From: Frankiales bacterium | GTDB taxonomy: Bacteria > Actinomycetota > Actinomycetes > Mycobacteriales > SCTD01 | Direction: 5' to 3' | DNA: 64,000 bases | NCBI GenBank assembly: GCA_025465465.1 | Contig: JAODND010000007.1 | Coordinates: 55,102 to 119,101, forward strand | In this document: piece by piece, positions 24,140-35,688 of the stretch | Numbering within the stretch: the stretch's first letter is position 1 | How the letters are laid out: each line of letters opens with the position of its first letter | Translations under genes and position numbers: made by a program | Notes under the pieces: generated by a model | Told to the model about the DNA's origin: nothing | What the model saw: the letters and a program-made list of their open reading frames with translations, nothing else | Database searches by the model: none

Positions 24140-25132
24140 CTACCAGCCGCGCAGGTCCACGGGCCAGCTCTCGAGCACCTCGTCACCGTCGACGAGGTGC
24201 ATCTGGGCGTGCATCGCGACGGTCGGGTCGATGTGCCCGGGGATGACCCGGACGCGGTCGCCCACCGCGAAGTCCGCGCCGTCGGCGGAGAAGACGGTGT
24301 GCTCGTCGGCGCAGTACCACACCGATGCGCCCTCGATGCTGGGGTTGCCGTGGTCCATGCCGAGCCCCTTGAGCCCGACGTCGGCCACGAACCAGCCGCC
24401 CGGGTTGGCCGAGATGATCCTCGCCAGGATGGTCAGCGATTGCTGGAACGGCGCGTGGGCGTGCGCGTAGGTCGTGTCCATGAGGCAGTACGAACCGGCC
24501 TGGATCTCGTTGGCCCAGGTGTTCACGTCGTAGGTCCCGGTGCCGCCCGCTGACACCAGCTCACCCCCGACGTCGGCAGAGGCCTTGAGCAGCAGGGCCA
24601 TGCAGTCCTCGACCTGCTTGCGCTTCTCCGCGGGGTCCTCGACGAGCATGACGTGCCCCTCGTAGCCCATGACTCCCCGGACCGTCAGGCCCTTCGACCG
24701 CGCGTAGTCGGCCAGCGCACCGGCCTCCGAGGCGTCCACACCGCACCGGGGCAGTCCGACGTTGACGTCGACGACGACCTCGCGCACGCCGCCGTCGGCG
24801 GCCGCGTCGACGGTCAGGTGGCTGTCGACGGCGACGGTGACGCGGGCGTTGTCGATGGCCCCGAGCCGACGGCAGTCGAGCACCTCGTTGGCCAGCAGCA
24901 GGTCGTCGCCCAGACCGGCGGCGGCCATCCCCTCGACCTCGCGGATCGTGGCGCAGGTGAAGCCGGTGTGGCCGAGCGCGTGCATCCGGCGCGCGAGGGC
25001 AGTGGTCTTGAAGGCCTTCACGTGCGGCCGCAGCCGTGTGCCTGGCAGCGCCGCTGCCATCTTGTGCAGGTTGGCGTCGAGCAGCTCGCGCTCGACGACG
25101 AGGGCGGGCGTCTGCAGGTCGGACAGCTTCAC
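24140..25132 (-). CDS. DSD1-family PLP enzyme (alanine-racemase-fold; D-Ser dehydratase / D-Thr aldolase-like)
   Basis: TPALVV...LRPHVKAFKT (PLP Lys context) and C-terminal ...IPGHIDPT motif; GTG at 25132. Confidence 0.8.
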   Translation of the reverse strand: MKLSDLQTPALVVERELLDANLHKMAAALPGTRLRPHVKAFKTTALARRMHALGHTGFTCATIREVEGMAAAGLGDDLLLANEVLDCRRLGAIDNARVTVAVDSHLTVDAAADGGVREVVVDVNVGLPRCGVDASEAGALADYARSKGLTVRGVMGYEGHVMLVEDPAEKRKQVEDCMALLLKASADVGGELVSAGGTGTYDVNTWANEIQAGSYCLMDTTYAHAHAPFQQSLTILARIISANPGGWFVADVGLKGLGMDHGNPSIEGASVWYCADEHTVFSADGADFAVGDRVRVIPGHIDPTVAMHAQMHLVDGDEVLESWPVDLRGW

Positions 25133-25350
25133 GAGAGAACCACCAGAGTCAGGATTGCGAGAAGGAGGACGTTGGCCATGGTGGCCGCGATGACGATTGC
25201 CATCAGCCGGTCGTCGGGGTCGTCCCACGCCCTTCCAGGCGGGGTCTCACCGTCTGCCGGGGTGTCGCAGACCGGGCAGCGGTGCCGAGTCAGAGAGGGG
25301 GCGTAGGGCGCTGTGCAGCGGGTGCAGACGACGCGTTCGAGGGTCTTCAC
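25129..25350 (-). CDS. zinc-ribbon membrane protein (73 aa), hypothetical
   Basis: CTRC...CPVC followed by one TM; GTGA overlaps on both sides. Confidence 0.6.
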   Translation of the reverse strand: MKTLERVVCTRCTAPYAPSLTRHRCPVCDTPADGETPPGRAWDDPDDRLMAIVIAATMANVLLLAILTLVVLS

Positions 25351-32966: not shown

Positions 32967-34309
32967 GCCGTCTCCAGCACTCGGCTCGAGAGGTCGTCGT
33001 CGATCTCCCGGTACCGCTGCAGGAACGGCAGGCTCGCCAGCGTGAGAAGCCCTGGCAGCACGGAGAACCCGAGCACCAGCCCGAGCACGGCGGTGTCGGT
33101 CTGGACAGGGGCCCTGGTGCCGGCGTCATAGGAGTGGTAGCCGCTGATCGCGAGGATGACCCCGAACAGCGCCGGACCCACGGCGAACGCGATGGTCTCG
33201 CCGCCCTGCCAGACCCCGGTGAAGATGCCCGCGCGGCCGTCGTGCTCGTCGGTGATGAGGTCCGGCAGGATGGCGTAGGGGAACAGCTGCATCCCCGCGT
33301 ACCCGACCCCGAGCAGGATCATCTGGACATAGATGACGACCTCCGCCTCGTCGCGGGCGAAGACGAGTGACGCGGCGGTGAGACCGAAGATGCCGGTGGC
33401 CAGCAGGTAGCCGAGGAGCTTGCCGCGGGTGCGGGAGAACCGCCGCCAGAGCGGCACCATCACCGCGCACGGGGCGACCAGGAACACGAACAGCAGCGTC
33501 GACTTCTTGGCGTCGTGCAGGACGTAGACGGCTACGTACTGGGCGCCGGTGAGCATGGCGGCGGTCGCCGCCGCCTGCAGGTTGTAGCCGAGGAACAGCG
33601 TCACGAACGGCTTGTTGGCGCGCACGACGTCGTACTGCTGGCGCAGGGTCGCGCGTGGGCCGGTGAGCGGCGCCGTCGTCCGGGCCTCGCGGGTGCCCCG
33701 CCAGGCGGTGAGGAAGGCCACCGCGAGGATGCCGGCGACGACGACGGACATCCAGGCATAGCTCGACGCCGAGCCGCCCTTGCCCTCGTTGTCGGCGCCC
33801 GCGATGGTCGGCGCGAGCGCCCCGCCGACCAGGATGCCGACGGTCAGCAGCACCATGCGGACGCTCGTGATGCGGGTGCGCTCGTGGTAGTCGTCGGTCA
33901 TCTCCGGCGGCATCGCCGACCAGGGCACGCAGAAGACGGCGTAGAACGTCATCGCGACCGTGAACACCGCGGTCACGTAGATGGCGCTGGCCAGGTGGCT
34001 CCCGAGCTTGGGCGCGGTGAACAGCAGGACGAACGCCAGCGACGTGCCGAGACCGCCGACGAGCATGAACGGCCGGCGCTTGCCGTAGCGGTTGGTGGTG
34101 CGGTCGGAGATGCCGCCCATCAGCGGGTTGGCGAACGCGTCCCAGAGCTTCGGGACGAACAGCGCGGCACTCGCCAGCCCGGCGCCGATGCCGAGGATGT
34201 TGGTCATGTAGAACAGCAGCAGCAGGCCGGGCACGGTGACGAAGACGCCGTTGCCGATGGCCCCTGCGCCGTAGGAGACGGTCAGCCGGCGGGAGAGCTG
34301 CGCCGCCAT
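32963..34309 (-). CDS. GPH/MFS_2 (MelB/MFSD2-like) cation symporter
   Basis: DAFANPLMGGISDRTTNRYGKRRPFML motif; 12 TM; ATG at 34309 overlaps the upstream stop (TGATG). Confidence 0.8.
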   Translation of the reverse strand: MAAQLSRRLTVSYGAGAIGNGVFVTVPGLLLLFYMTNILGIGAGLASAALFVPKLWDAFANPLMGGISDRTTNRYGKRRPFMLVGGLGTSLAFVLLFTAPKLGSHLASAIYVTAVFTVAMTFYAVFCVPWSAMPPEMTDDYHERTRITSVRMVLLTVGILVGGALAPTIAGADNEGKGGSASSYAWMSVVVAGILAVAFLTAWRGTREARTTAPLTGPRATLRQQYDVVRANKPFVTLFLGYNLQAAATAAMLTGAQYVAVYVLHDAKKSTLLFVFLVAPCAVMVPLWRRFSRTRGKLLGYLLATGIFGLTAASLVFARDEAEVVIYVQMILLGVGYAGMQLFPYAILPDLITDEHDGRAGIFTGVWQGGETIAFAVGPALFGVILAISGYHSYDAGTRAPVQTDTAVLGLVLGFSVLPGLLTLASLPFLQRYREIDDDLSSRVLETA

Positions 34310-35688
34310 CAGAACGGCTGCCCGTCGCAGCGCCAGTCGGTGACGCGGTTGACCCGGCCGCTGGCGACCTTGCCGAACTTGATGCACCGGTTGATGTCGC
34401 GGTTGCCCGGCGCGAACTGCAGGTCGCTGGTGAAGCCGAAGCCGCCCTTGCCGTTGAGGCCGTCCATCACCTTGAGCAGGTTGGCGCGGGTGATCGTGGT
34501 GCCCATCGCCTTCACGGCGGCCACGAAGATCTCGGCGTCGACCCAGCCCTGCTCGCCGAAGTAGTTGATCTGCGCCCGGCTCCCGTAGGCCGCCTTCACG
34601 GTGCTCACGTACTTCTGCACCTGGGCGCCACCGCCGTCGATGAACTCGTAGTCGGTCGCGACGAACACGCCGTCGGTCGCCGACGACTGCTGCACCGACG
34701 GGTCGACGAACAGCGCGTCGGCCGCGTGCTTCGGGTGGTAGGACTGCCGGGCCTGCGACTGCAGCAGCCGGTTGTAGGCGGTCTGGTCGAGCAGGCTCGC
34801 GAAGCCGTCGACGCCGTCCAGCCGGTACTGCGTGACAAGGTCGTCATAGGTGGCCTGCGTCGGCTGCTCGCTCACGATCTCCTTGTCGGAGAGCGTGACC
34901 CCCTTGCTCGCGAACCCTGCCTTGAAGGCCTTCACCAGGTTGGCGTCGGCGGTCGCCTCGTTGTTGGTGATGTAGACCAGGCCCGGCTTCTTGACGCCCT
35001 GCTCGGCCAGGAACCGGCCCATCTGATAGCCGTAGTGCCCGTAGCTCGCGCTGAAGATGTAGCTGTACGAGGAGTGGTACTCCGCGCGCTCGCCGTACCC
35101 GCCGATCAGCGGGATCTTGTTCTGCTCGAGGAACGGCACGATCTGGTTCTCCGTGTTGGGCGCGTTCCACCCCGTGAACGCGAACACACCGTCGCCGACC
35201 ATCTGCTGGGCCTGCGACTGACCGCGTGGCTGGTCGAGCTGGTCGTCGCGAAGGTCCAAGATGATCTTGTGACCGTTGACACCGCCCGCGCGGTTGACCA
35301 TGTCGAAGTAGGCCTTGGTGGCCTGCGCGCTGCTCGCGAAGTTGATCGCCCCGGTCTGCGTGACGATCGCGCCGACCTTGATCGGGGCGCCGGCCGCGAT
35401 GACCTTGGTGTCGGCCTTCGCGGGCGGGACCGTGGTCCCGGGAGCGGGTCCGCTCGTGGTCGTGATGGTCGAGCCCTTGGTCCCGGGGGCTCCCGTCGCG
35501 CCGGCGCTCGCGCTCGTCGTCGGCTGGGCCGCCACACCGGGGTTGCCACCACCCGGGGTCTGCGTCAGCGCGACAGGGCGGTTGTTGTCGGTGTTCAGGT
35601 CGTGCACGAGGATGCCGCCGAACACGGCGGCGACGAGCAGCTGAAACGCGAACAACGCGGCCAACAGGCGATCACGAGGGCTGAGCAA
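34309..35688 (-). CDS. Leu/Ile/Val-type (Peripla_BP_6) substrate-binding protein, N-terminal TM anchored
   Basis: 459 aa; same architecture and many identical blocks as the 30164-31543 protein; TTG start inferred from the paralogue N-terminus MLS(P/S)RDRLLA. Confidence 0.8.
   Translation of the reverse strand: MLSPRDRLLAALFAFQLLVAAVFGGILVHDLNTDNNRPVALTQTPGGGNPGVAAQPTTSASAGATGAPGTKGSTITTTSGPAPGTTVPPAKADTKVIAAGAPIKVGAIVTQTGAINFASSAQATKAYFDMVNRAGGVNGHKIILDLRDDQLDQPRGQSQAQQMVGDGVFAFTGWNAPNTENQIVPFLEQNKIPLIGGYGERAEYHSSYSYIFSASYGHYGYQMGRFLAEQGVKKPGLVYITNNEATADANLVKAFKAGFASKGVTLSDKEIVSEQPTQATYDDLVTQYRLDGVDGFASLLDQTAYNRLLQSQARQSYHPKHAADALFVDPSVQQSSATDGVFVATDYEFIDGGGAQVQKYVSTVKAAYGSRAQINYFGEQGWVDAEIFVAAVKAMGTTITRANLLKVMDGLNGKGGFGFTSDLQFAPGNRDINRCIKFGKVASGRVNRVTDWRCDGQPF

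What the first reader, a model, noticed from the sequence alone, without database searches (positions are those of the whole stretch)
24140..35688. Ten-gene minus-strand operon with every junction overlapped, mixing two transporter types, two PLP enzymes and two unknown envelope proteins
The gene order is SBP2, MelB/MFSD2-like MFS, SPL-like PLP enzyme, SBP1, fused LivHM permease, LivG, LivF-RHH, 430-aa secreted/anchored protein, 73-aa zinc-ribbon membrane protein, and DSD1-type PLP enzyme.

Every junction overlaps:
- 34309: TGATG
- 32963-32966: ATGA
- 31533-31543: 11 nt
- 30164-30167: ATGA
- 28263-28266: ATGA
- 27496: TAGTG
- 26636-26639: ATGA
- 25347-25350: GTGA
- 25129-25132: GTGA

Nine consecutive overlaps argue for one tightly co-translated functional unit, controlled by the divergent TetR.

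The content is unusual. It has a Liv-type importer with two binding proteins, a secondary symporter, a lyase of the sphingoid-base-phosphate type and a D-hydroxy-amino-acid-type enzyme. I cannot map this to any described catabolic pathway. My guess is uptake and breakdown of an amphiphilic amino-alcohol or hydroxy-amino-acid compound.
Basis: partly seen in the sequence, partly recalled or inferred. Interest (0 to 1): 0.7.

Follow-up and report, generated by a model that had tools for sequence, protein, structure and literature searches.

The report
Composite ABC-importer and PLP-lyase operon
The ten overlapping genes are a real, conserved operon in uncultured Frankiales-like actinobacteria, but it is two older modules joined together: a Liv-type ABC importer with two uncharacterised envelope partners and a D-threonine-aldolase-like enzyme, plus an inserted transporter and 'sphingosine-phosphate-lyase-like' pair whose enzyme lacks part of the phosphate-binding site.

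Summary
There are ten minus-strand genes at 24140-35688, and all nine junctions overlap exactly as listed.

The operon is not a chance juxtaposition. The same order recurs in at least five related metagenome-assembled genomes at 47-92% protein identity.

It is, however, modular:
- **Core.** The deepest conserved unit is SBP + LivHM + LivG + LivF + g8 + g9, usually with TetR and g10. It occurs without the MFS and SPL-like genes.
- **Accessory pair.** g8 (secreted, all-beta, C-terminal anchor) and g9 (zinc ribbon plus TM helix) follow LivF in distantly related Liv-type operons that carry other enzymes. They look like generic transporter partners, not pathway enzymes.
- **Cassette.** MFS_2 + SPL-like, often with its own TetR, is widespread in Actinomycetota and sits here between the two SBP genes.

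The SPL-like enzyme scores best against true S1P lyases. But two of the five substrate-phosphate residues differ (His129 to Asp62, Ala103 to Tyr35), and Asp62 is near-invariant in the family, so it is probably not an S1P lyase.

g10 is closer to D-threonine and hydroxyaspartate aldolases than to DSD1.

The likely function is uptake and C-alpha-C-beta cleavage of beta-hydroxy-amino compounds. This is inferred; the substrate is unknown.

The parts
35748..36389 (+). Divergent TetR-family regulator. The true start is probably GTG 35787.
   Evidence: TetR_N plus TetR_C_22 domains. Homologues are linked to the cluster in L002, L007, L082 and L083 (divergent) and in L090, L091 and L097 (downstream). 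Conserved non-coding-like motifs lie inside the first 13 codons of the longest ORF.
35689..35786 (-). Candidate promoter/operator region. It holds TTGACC (35777-35782), the conserved 26-nt motif CAGAACGTGAACGATCCTCACATCAG (35743-35768) and the perfect palindrome TGTCGAG-TAC-CTCGACA (35715-35731).
   Evidence: The 26-nt motif and TTGACC are identical in the window, L002 and L007, and partly kept in L082 and L083. The palindrome is not conserved in L002 or L007. The E. coli-type consensus scan finds nothing. Function is inferred only.
34309..35688 (-). g1, binding protein SBP2 with an N-terminal TM anchor and a low-complexity linker.
   Evidence: Peripla_BP_6, 148 bits. It has no Cys lipobox. 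It is 53% identical to g4. The TTG start follows GAGGAG and is conserved in L002.
32963..34309 (-). g2, an MFS_2 (GPH / MelB / MFSD2-type) secondary transporter. It is part of the inserted cassette.
   Evidence: MFS_2, 269 bits. MelB scores 74 bits and MFSD2A 71 bits. A homologue lies directly upstream of the SPL-like gene in 29 of 80 loci, all Actinomycetota except Nannocystis L020.
31533..32966 (-). g3, an SPL-clade group II PLP enzyme with an altered head-group pocket (Tyr35, Asp38, Asp62) and a family-specific C-terminal tail of about 80 aa. It is part of the inserted cassette.
   Evidence: StSPL 287 bits, human SPL 260, MfnA 97. Residue mapping and Table S2 of PMC5234717. Family conservation.
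30164..31543 (-). g4, binding protein SBP1 with an N-terminal TM anchor.
   Evidence: Peripla_BP_6, 139 bits. It is directly followed by the permease gene in all related loci.
28263..30167 (-). g5, fused LivH-LivM permease.
   Evidence: Two BPD_transp_2 stretches. UrtB/LivH-like N-terminal half and UrtC/LivM-like C-terminal half.
27496..28266 (-). g6, LivG-type ATPase.
   Evidence: ABC_tran plus BCA_ABC_TP_C. LivG model 241 bits, below the equivalog cut-off of 362.
26636..27496 (-). g7, LivF-type ATPase with a C-terminal RHH-like tail of about 50 aa (about 26639-26791).
   Evidence: ABC_tran. UrtE 225 bits and LivF 202 bits, both below their cut-offs. Tail: RHH_5, E = 0.004. The tail pattern is conserved in all clade loci and in distant L099 and L100.
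25347..26639 (-). g8, a secreted all-beta protein with a Pro-rich linker and a C-terminal TM anchor followed by an RRRR tail. It is the founding member here of an uncharacterised family linked to Liv-type transporters.
   Evidence: No Pfam or NCBIfam hit. 79 close homologues, those with a source name labelled Frankiales or Mycobacteriales MAGs. Profile search: 518 representatives. AF2 model pLDDT 71.6, beta-rich residues 30-330, helix 393-425. No real structural match, TM-score at most 0.25. Contexts.
25129..25350 (-). g9, a 73-aa protein with an N-terminal CxxC-x13-CPVC zinc ribbon and a C-terminal TM helix.
   Evidence: The Cys motif and TM helix are conserved in every related locus. They are also conserved after distant g8-like genes in L098, L099, L100 (uncalled ORF) and L102.
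24140..25132 (-). g10, a fold-type III PLP enzyme of the D-threonine aldolase / D-3-hydroxyaspartate aldolase type.
   Evidence: Ala_racemase_N plus D-ser_dehydrat domains. 7dib 138 bits, 6qkb 130, 4v15 126, D-serine dehydratase 3anu 30. The PLP Lys (PHVK, Lys39) and the H-x-D-P-T motif align with the aldolases. BhcC model 159 bits against a cut-off of 690.

Best explanation
This is a TetR-controlled nutrient uptake and catabolism operon built from two modules.

**Module A (ancestral in this lineage).** A Liv/HAAT-type ABC importer with membrane-anchored binding proteins, fused LivHM, LivG and LivF carrying an RHH-like tail. With it come two transporter-associated envelope proteins: g8 (surface-exposed beta-rich protein with a C-terminal anchor) and g9 (tail-anchored zinc ribbon). 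A D-threonine-aldolase-type PLP enzyme, g10, completes the module.

**Module B.** A cassette widespread in Actinomycetota, originally TetR2 + MFS_2 symporter + SPL-clade PLP lyase. It was inserted between the two binding-protein genes. In the window's lineage it lost its own regulator, so all ten genes are now packed head to tail.

**Inferred mechanism.**
1. A small beta-hydroxy-amino compound is bound by the SBPs and imported by the ABC system. g8 and g9 act as accessory or regulatory subunits of the transporter, not as pathway enzymes.
2. g10 cleaves the C-alpha-C-beta bond of a D-beta-hydroxy-alpha-amino acid to glycine plus an aldehyde.
3. The MFS imports a related amino-alcohol-type compound. 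g3 performs the analogous SPL-type retro-aldol cleavage on a substrate whose head group is not a phosphate ester.
4. The TetR repressor is released by the substrate or a product.

**Shown versus inferred.** Shown here: gene structure, family assignments, modular distribution and the pocket substitutions. Inferred: substrate class, direction of MFS transport, roles of g8, g9 and the RHH tail, and the regulation.
For: - **Gene structure.** ORFs, starts and overlaps are confirmed.
- **Family assignments.**
- **Whole-cluster conservation.** Found in L002, L004, L005, L006, L007 and L029 at 47-92% identity.
- **Core without MFS/SPL.** L082 has TetR, two SBPs, the ABC genes, g8, g9 and g10. L089, L090, L093, L094 and L096 also lack the pair. 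L083 has the MFS but no SPL-like gene.
- **MFS + SPL-like pair alone.** Found in Amycolatopsis, Saccharothrix, Actinosynnema, Salinispora, Nocardia, Streptomyces and others.
- **Cassette regulator.** TetR2 lies directly upstream of the pair in L045, L062 and L078, and between SBP2 and the MFS in L005, L006 and L029.
- **g8/g9 as transporter partners.** The g8/g9-like pair overlaps or directly follows LivF in distant Liv-type operons with other regulators and enzymes: PucR plus cupin, IclR, and AMP-binding plus thiolase.
- **g3 active site.** It keeps all PLP-binding residues. It has Asp62 and Tyr35 where validated S1P lyases have His/Gln/Arg and Ala/Thr. Asp62 is present in 80 of 80 loci and 117 of 120 top homologues.
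- **g10 active site.** It keeps the PLP Lys and the H-x-D motif of the metal-dependent D-aldolases.
Against: - No ligand, activity or transcript data exist.
- The SBPs score far below every curated equivalog model, so nothing identifies the substrate.
- g3 could be a decarboxylase rather than a lyase, and its pocket changes do not say what it binds.
- The two modules may serve unrelated substrates and be joined only for co-expression. L082 and L083 show that neither module needs the other.
- g10 is missing from or displaced in some core clusters (L090, L093, L094), so even its link to the transporter is not obligatory.
- The locus scan that gave 80 of 80 Asp62 used a search pattern containing N[GA]LDP, which biases that count. 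The 117 of 120 count from the HMMER-ranked hits is independent of the pattern.
Confidence: 0.45

Rival explanations
1. This is a sphingoid-base-phosphate (or other lysolipid) scavenging pathway. The MFSD2-like MFS imports an amphiphile such as S1P, and g3 is a true S1P lyase giving phosphoethanolamine plus a fatty aldehyde. The ABC system and g10 process related head-group fragments.
For: - g3's best solved relatives are all S1P lyases (287-169 bits).
- That score is well above its score for the decarboxylase MfnA (97 bits), so g3 sits clearly inside the SPL clade.
- Tyr105, Asn126, Lys317 and the PLP residues are kept.
- g2 is as close to the lysolipid symporter MFSD2A as to MelB.
- The g3 family also occurs in Myxococcota, Flavobacteriaceae and a Qipengyuania MAG. 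From general knowledge, these groups make sphingolipids.
Against: - Phosphate ligand His129 is Asp62, a charge reversal. Small Ala103 is Tyr35. The neighbouring His of the AVYH motif is Asp38. Asp62 and Asp38 are near-invariant in the family.
- Validated enzymes have only His, Gln or Arg at the His129 position.
- The cluster has no kinase, aldehyde dehydrogenase or phosphoethanolamine-handling gene.
- In Desulfobacterales the family pairs with a different membrane protein.
Confidence: 0.12
2. There are two unrelated functions fused for expression. g3 is an amino-acid decarboxylase and the MFS is its precursor/product transporter. The ABC importer plus g10 is an independent D-amino-acid or hydroxy-amino-acid uptake system.
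For: [quoted passage not shown]
- From general knowledge (not tested here), the N-x-L-D-P motif resembles the Asp-containing motif of MfnA and GAD-type decarboxylases rather than the N-x-L-H-P of SPLs.
- The cassette exists on its own with its own TetR in many genera.
- The core exists without the cassette.
Against: - g3 scores about three times higher against S1P lyases than against any decarboxylase structure.
- From general knowledge, known decarboxylase-antiporter pairs use APC or AAEx carriers, not MFS_2.
- The cassette was inserted between the two SBP genes and kept there across lineages that have diverged to about 50-77% identity in g1-g4. This suggests a selective link.
Confidence: 0.2
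3. The ABC system works mainly as a sensor or signalling device. g8 would be the extracellular sensor, g9 a zinc-ribbon adaptor, and the RHH-like tail of LivF a DNA-binding or partner-binding output that couples transport state to gene expression.
For: - The trio of LivF tail, g8 and g9 is conserved and tightly linked (4-nt overlaps) across distant Liv-type operons.
- The tail has weak RHH similarity.
- g9 is predicted to place a zinc ribbon in the cytoplasm at the membrane (inference from the sequence).
Against: - The RHH hit is below the Pfam threshold.
- L098 and L102 lack the tail but keep g8 and g9.
- Each operon already has a conventional regulator (TetR, IclR or PucR).
- A full importer with binding proteins is present.
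Confidence: 0.1
4. This is a chance juxtaposition of unrelated genes with no functional unity.
For: The modules occur separately elsewhere.
Against: - The ten-gene order is kept in several genomes down to about 47% identity for g8.
- Nine of nine junctions overlap.
- There is no intergenic space for internal promoters.
Confidence: 0.03

Closest known systems
Sphingosine-1-phosphate lyases (EC 4.1.2.27): StSPL 3MAD, human SGPL1, yeast Dpl1p, Burkholderia S1PL2021
   Same: - g3 has the same fold and clade; these are its best structural-sequence hits at 245-287 bits.
- The PLP Lys237, Asp200, Cys202, His126, His236 and the GGT loop are kept.
- Tyr37 (StSPL Tyr105), Asn59 (Asn126) and Lys243 (Lys317) are kept.
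   Different: - His129 is Asp62, Ala103 is Tyr35, and the His of the AVYH motif is Asp38. Asp62 and Asp38 are near-invariant in the family.
- The N-terminal segment of about 70 aa is absent.
- g3 has a conserved extra C-terminal tail of about 80 aa.
- In Actinomycetota the gene is paired with an MFS_2 transporter.
D-threonine aldolase and D-3-hydroxyaspartate aldolase BhcC (fold-type III, metal-dependent; 7DIB, 4V15, 6QKB)
   Same: - The domain architecture is the same.
- The PLP lysine motif (R-P-H-x-K) and the H-x-D-P-T motif align.
   Different: - g10 has 330 aa against 379-396 aa, with several deletions.
- It scores far below the BhcC equivalog cut-off (159 against 690).
- The other genes of the beta-hydroxyaspartate cycle are absent.
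- g10 is linked to an ABC importer.
LivJ/K-HMGF and UrtABCDE (HAAT-family ABC importers, TCDB 3.A.1.4)
   Same: The parts list is the same: Peripla_BP_6 binding protein, two BPD_transp_2 permease domains, and LivG- and LivF-type ATPases.
   Different: - The permease is fused.
- There are two TM-anchored binding proteins.
- LivF carries an RHH-like tail.
- There are two extra conserved membrane or envelope proteins, g8 and g9. I know of no described Liv or Urt system with these, and no curated Pfam or NCBIfam family covers them.
- All scores are below the equivalog cut-offs, so the substrate cannot be transferred.
MelB and MFSD2A (GPH / MFS_2 cation symporters)
   Same: There is a full-length MFS_2 match, and g2 is equally similar to both.
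   Different: - g2 is below the TIGR00792 cut-off (189 against 231).
- The motif reads W-D-A-F-A-N-P. From memory, MelB and MFSD2A have a second Asp there, so the cation site may differ. This was not tested.

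Membership tests
Sphingosine-1-phosphate lyase (EC 4.1.2.27) | Group II PLP fold with SPLs as the closest relatives | tested here: met
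   StSPL 287 bits, human SPL 260, Dpl1p 246, against MfnA 97.
Sphingosine-1-phosphate lyase (EC 4.1.2.27) | PLP-binding residues (Lys311, Asp274, Cys276, His201, His310, Gly168/Thr169, Ser353 in StSPL numbering) | tested here: met
   Lys237, Asp200, Cys202, His126, His236, Gly97/Thr98 and Thr279 align.
Sphingosine-1-phosphate lyase (EC 4.1.2.27) | Substrate-phosphate-binding set Tyr105, Asn126, His129 (Gln or Arg in Burkholderia), Ala103 (or Thr), Lys317 | tested here: not met
   Tyr37, Asn59 and Lys243 are kept. His129 is Asp62 and Ala103 is Tyr35. Both are near-invariant in the family.
Sphingosine-1-phosphate lyase (EC 4.1.2.27) | Cleavage of S1P or sphinganine-1-P to phosphoethanolamine plus a fatty aldehyde | not testable with these tools
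   This needs an enzyme assay.
D-threonine aldolase / DSD-type fold-type III PLP enzymes | Ala_racemase_N barrel plus the C-terminal D-ser_dehydrat domain | tested here: met
   PF01168 69 bits and PF14031 54.5 bits, both above their cut-offs.
D-threonine aldolase / DSD-type fold-type III PLP enzymes | PLP lysine and the metal-site His-x-Asp (aldolase type) rather than His-x-Cys (DSD type; distinction from general knowledge) | tested here: met
   PHVK aligns with PHAK, and P-G-H-I-D-P-T aligns with P-S-H-V-D-P-T and P-G-H-C-D-P-T.
3-hydroxy-D-aspartate aldolase BhcC (NCBIfam equivalog NF045642) | Score above the curated cut-off | tested here: not met
   159 bits against a cut-off of 690.
HAAT (Liv/Urt-type) ABC importer | Peripla_BP_6 binding protein, two BPD_transp_2 permease domains, LivG with BCA_ABC_TP_C, and LivF | tested here: met
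HAAT (Liv/Urt-type) ABC importer | Equivalog-level match to LivJ/HMGF or UrtABCDE, which would allow the substrate to be transferred | tested here: not met
   All scores are below the cut-offs. For example, the SBPs score 16-18 bits against 477-493, LivG 241 against 362, and UrtE 225 against 286.
GPH / MFS_2 symporters | Full-length MFS_2 profile match | tested here: met
   269 bits covering profile positions 1-424 of 427.
GPH / MFS_2 symporters | TIGR00792 subfamily cut-off and the cation-site acidic pair | tested here: inconclusive
   189 bits against a cut-off of 231. The motif WDAFANP keeps the first Asp only. The comparison with MelB and MFSD2A is from memory.
Ribbon-helix-helix domain (LivF tail) | Match to an RHH profile above threshold | tested here: inconclusive
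   RHH_5 scores 17.4 bits against a cut-off of 26, E = 0.004. A strand-helix-helix-like pattern is conserved in 13 related loci plus L099 and L100.
TetR-family repressor | TetR_N HTH domain plus a TetR C-terminal ligand domain | tested here: met
   PF00440 49.5 bits and PF17928 52.6 bits.

The most novel reading that the evidence does not exclude
Two readings remain open, and either would be new.

**(a) A new transporter accessory module.** g8, g9 and the RHH-like LivF tail form a previously unrecognised accessory or signalling module of Liv-type ABC importers in high-GC Gram-positive bacteria. It would change how these importers capture substrate or report transport state.

**(b) A kinase-independent cleavage route.** The large 'N-x-L-D-P' branch of the SPL family, now annotated as sphinganine-1-phosphate aldolase in thousands of bacterial genomes, is a distinct lyase. 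It would act on non-phosphorylated 2-amino-3-hydroxy compounds such as free sphingoid bases or small amino-diols, fed in Actinomycetota by an MFSD2-like transporter.
Probability: 0.2. Interest if true: 0.75.

Novelty: new variant of a known kind. Interest (0 to 1): 0.5.

Why it matters
- **Annotation.** The sources that name close homologues of g3 call them 'sphinganine-1-phosphate aldolase', 'glutamate/tyrosine decarboxylase-like' or 'aspartate aminotransferase family'. The near-invariant Asp at the phosphate-ligand position suggests the first name is wrong for this branch. A defined, testable substitution pair (Asp62/Tyr35 against His/Ala) could explain the specificity.
- **Transporter biology.** A conserved pair of envelope proteins, and often an RHH-like ATPase tail, travels with Liv-type ABC importers across diverged operons. 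No curated family covers these proteins.
- **Operon evolution.** The locus is a clear example of operon growth by cassette insertion. It was followed by loss of the cassette's own regulator and compaction to overlapping junctions.

None of this identifies the substrate, so the practical impact depends on biochemical follow-up.

Tried and rejected
- **Structural match for g8.** Foldseek against the PDB gave only outer-membrane beta-barrels at TM-score 0.1-0.25, so there was no usable match.
- **Families for g8, g9 and distant g8-like proteins.** Pfam and NCBIfam gave nothing.
- **Crude neighbourhood clustering of the 80 SPL-like loci.** It found no recurrent neighbour apart from the MFS. My ORF calling on high-GC DNA was noisy. 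The roughly 460-aa membrane protein next to the gene in Desulfobacterales has no Pfam hit.
- **Consensus promoter and terminator scan.** It was uninformative for this GC-rich organism.
- **Literature searches.** I searched for a characterised actinobacterial SPL-like enzyme and for a D-threonine aldolase linked to an ABC transporter. Neither search found anything relevant.
- **Palindrome at 35715-35731.** I considered it as the TetR operator, but it is not conserved in the closest relatives.
- **Upstream radical-SAM gene.** I first labelled it BioB. It is ThiH, under a TPP riboswitch.
- **ThiH and glycine from g10.** I considered a metabolic link, but there is no evidence beyond synteny among close relatives.
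- **Source genome.** It was not identified. Only a 1.7-kb read-assembly contig carries the identical g8.

Full report
**1. Observation**

The window is about 71% GC. Ten minus-strand ORFs fill 24140-35688. Eight of the ten ORFs checked have third-position GC of 0.90-0.96. g9 was below that scan's length cut-off, and g2 and g10 were scored as their longer ORFs.

I re-derived every junction. The internal starts chosen for g2 (ATG 34309) and g10 (GTG 25132) agree with the gene lengths called in orthologous loci.

My reading of the ORF list gives only two clean 4-nt overlaps elsewhere in the window, among roughly 18 same-strand neighbouring pairs. Nine in a row therefore reflects real operon compaction.

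The cluster is bounded on both sides:
- Downstream lies a convergent small DUF1059 gene ending at 24136.
- Upstream lies a divergent TetR gene.
- Beyond TetR lies a convergent ThiH gene (415 bits, above the equivalog cut-off) under a TPP riboswitch at 38186-38292.

**2. What the genes are**

- **g1 and g4.** These are Peripla_BP_6 binding proteins, 53% identical to each other. Each has an N-terminal TM anchor instead of a lipobox.
- **g2.** This is an MFS_2/GPH transporter, equally distant from MelB and MFSD2A.
- **g5, g6 and g7.** These are fused LivH-LivM, LivG and LivF. All score below the equivalog cut-offs, so no substrate can be transferred from known systems.
- **The g7 tail.** g7 has a tail of about 50 aa with weak RHH similarity (E = 0.004). 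The tail is conserved in all related loci.
- **g8 and g9.** Neither has a curated family.
- **g10.** It has the D-threonine-aldolase architecture. Its best solved relatives are D-threonine aldolases and D-3-hydroxyaspartate aldolase (126-138 bits), with D-serine dehydratase at only 30 bits. The PLP lysine and the H-x-D-P-T motif align. 'DSD1-type' is right for the fold but not for the nearest function.

**3. The SPL-like enzyme**

g3 scores 287 bits against Symbiobacterium S1P lyase, 260 against human SPL and 97 against MfnA. It clearly belongs to the SPL clade.

The residues that bind the substrate phosphate are listed in a review of the StSPL structures (PMC10243590). They are tabulated for six validated enzymes in Table S2 of McLean et al. 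(PMC5234717): Tyr105, Asn126, His129, Ala103 and Lys317.

Mapping the HMMER alignments gives this comparison:

| StSPL residue | g3 residue | Validated enzymes |
|---|---|---|
| Tyr105 | Tyr37 (kept) | Tyr |
| Asn126 | Asn59 (kept) | Asn |
| Lys317 | Lys243 (kept) | Lys |
| His129 | Asp62 | His x4, Gln, Arg |
| Ala103 | Tyr35 | Ala or Thr |
| His of the AVYH motif | Asp38 | not tabulated |

Conservation of these changes in the family:
- Asp62, Asp38 and Tyr35 are invariant in a 16-sequence family alignment.
- Asp62 is present in 117 of the 120 best homologues.
- Asp62 is present in 80 of 80 genomic loci spanning several phyla. That scan used a pattern containing N[GA]LDP, so this count is biased.

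A negative side chain in place of a phosphate ligand argues against a phosphate-ester substrate. I therefore do not file g3 as an S1P lyase. It remains most likely a C-alpha-C-beta lyase or a related group II enzyme on another head group.

**4. Co-conservation and modularity**

I centred 80 genomic loci on g3 homologues and searched them with all window proteins.
- The complete cluster recurs in Frankiales- and Mycobacteriales-labelled MAGs: L002 (77-94% identity) and L005, L006 and L029 (47-84%).
- It also recurs in L004 and L007, which are truncated by contig ends.
- In 24 further loci only the MFS_2 gene lies directly upstream of the SPL-like gene. These include Amycolatopsis, Saccharothrix, Actinosynnema, Salinispora, Nocardia, Streptomyces, Hamadaea, Plantactinospora, Prauserella, Nitriliruptoraceae and one Nannocystis.
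- In most non-actinobacterial loci the enzyme gene stands without it.

I then centred on g8.
- L082 has TetR, SBP, SBP, LivHM, LivG, LivF, g8, g9 and g10, with neither the MFS nor the SPL-like gene.
- L083 has the MFS but no SPL-like gene.
- L089 has one SBP only.
- L090, L093, L094 and L096 (g8 identity 33-40%) keep SBP, ABC genes and g8; a g9 homologue was also detected in L090, L093 and L094. In them g10 is either replaced by a TetR gene or displaced upstream.

A second TetR-family gene lies directly upstream of the MFS in Streptomyces L078, Nocardia L062 and Hamadaea L045. The same gene lies between SBP2 and the MFS in L005, L006 and L029.

The simplest history is as follows. A three-gene cassette (TetR2, MFS, SPL-like) was inserted between the two SBP genes of an older ABC/g8/g9/g10 operon. 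In the lineage of the window, L002 and L007 the cassette's regulator was then lost. This left the 1-nt SBP2/MFS overlap seen today.

**5. The two envelope proteins**

- **Distribution of g8.** It has only 79 close homologues; those with a source name are labelled Frankiales or Mycobacteriales MAGs. A profile search of 1.84 billion representatives finds 518 relatives, 142 of them at E of 1e-10 or better. Ten distant members have no Pfam match above threshold.
- **Genomic context of distant members.** Six distant members were looked up, and five had usable context. In four loci (L098, L100, L101 and L102) the gene follows LivF directly, usually with a 4-nt overlap, in a Liv-type operon. In L099 it follows a gene fragment that looks like the end of a LivF-type ATPase and is followed by an SBP and permease. 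In all five it is followed by a small protein with a CxxC...CPVC motif (first pair degenerate in L098 and L102) and a C-terminal TM helix. These operons have different regulators and enzymes: PucR plus cupin, IclR, and AMP-binding plus thiolase. L103 is too short to judge.
- **Distribution of the RHH-like tail.** The RHH-like LivF tail is present in L099 and L100 but absent in L098 and L102.
- **Structure of g8.** The AlphaFold model (pLDDT 71.6) shows a signal peptide, a beta-rich ectodomain of about 300 aa, a disordered Pro-rich linker and a C-terminal helix. Foldseek finds no real match.

g8 and g9 are therefore best read as transporter-associated components, not pathway enzymes.

**6. Regulation**

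The TetR-g1 intergenic region contains TTGACC and a 26-nt motif that are identical in the window, L002 and L007. Both are partly kept in L082 and L083. These elements lie inside the first 13 codons of the longest TetR ORF, which suggests that TetR starts at GTG 35787. This is a candidate promoter/operator only. Consensus scans are silent.

**7. Mechanism and confidence**

The architecture and its history rest on direct evidence.

The function is inferred. I propose import by the ABC system and the MFS of small beta-hydroxy-amino compounds, followed by retro-aldol cleavage. g10 would act on the D-amino-acid type and g3 on an amino-alcohol type without phosphate.

The rivals are a true S1P-scavenging pathway, a decarboxylase cassette unrelated to the ABC substrate, a sensor-transporter role for g8, g9 and the tail, and chance. 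Each is weighed in the rival entries of this report.

**8. Novelty**

All catalytic and transport parts belong to known superfamilies, so nothing here is categorically new. Three features are variants not covered by any curated family or any paper I could find:
- the Asp-type branch of the SPL family and its pairing with an MFS;
- the g8/g9 accessory pair of Liv-type importers;
- the RHH-like tail on LivF.

Noticed in passing
window 38186-38292 (-) and 36391-37500 (-): A TPP riboswitch (66 bits, above the gathering score) lies upstream of a minus-strand unit. That unit ends in ThiH (2-iminoacetate synthase, 415 bits against a cut-off of 380). The ORF of about 248 aa between them (37437-38183) has no NCBIfam hit. 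ThiH is the conserved upstream neighbour of the cluster in L002, L005, L006, L007 and L029.
   Followed up: partly
window 35600-35688 (g1) and 31460-31543 (g4); L082, L083: Both binding proteins, and their orthologues, begin with a conserved motif S-x-RDRLLA-x-LFA-x-QL that leads into the TM anchor. It is unusual for an SBP signal region and may be a contact site for the transporter or for g8/g9.
   Followed up: no
L047, L053, L058, L067 (about 25-85 nt downstream of the SPL-like gene); representative sequence taken from L050: In Desulfobacterales and SAR324 MAGs the Asp-type SPL-like gene is directly followed by a polytopic membrane protein of about 460 aa with no Pfam match. A transporter-like partner may therefore be a recurring theme for this enzyme family.
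   Followed up: partly
window 35715-35731: A perfect 7-3-7 palindrome, TGTCGAG-TAC-CTCGACA, lies just upstream of the g1 ribosome-binding site. It is not conserved in the closest relatives L002 and L007, so it is probably not the shared operator.
   Followed up: yes
window 23672-24136 (+): A small DUF1059-domain ORF is convergent with g10 and ends 3 nt from its stop codon. It is conserved in the same position in L002. The domain covers only the last 45 or so residues of the longest ORF, so the real gene is probably much shorter.
   Followed up: no
L082 and L083 (same sample, ERZ25039498): Two different long contigs from one sample carry paralogous versions of the core cluster, one with the MFS and one without. 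Their flanks are similar: a DEAD-type helicase upstream, and an FAD_binding_4/ALO oxidase, MFS_1, ABM and AMP-binding genes downstream.
   Followed up: no
L100 about 9470-9680 (+): An uncalled g9-like ORF (CPSC...CPVC plus a TM helix) sits in the 264-nt 'gap' after the g8-like gene. Small partners of this family are probably under-annotated in public gene calls.
   Followed up: yes
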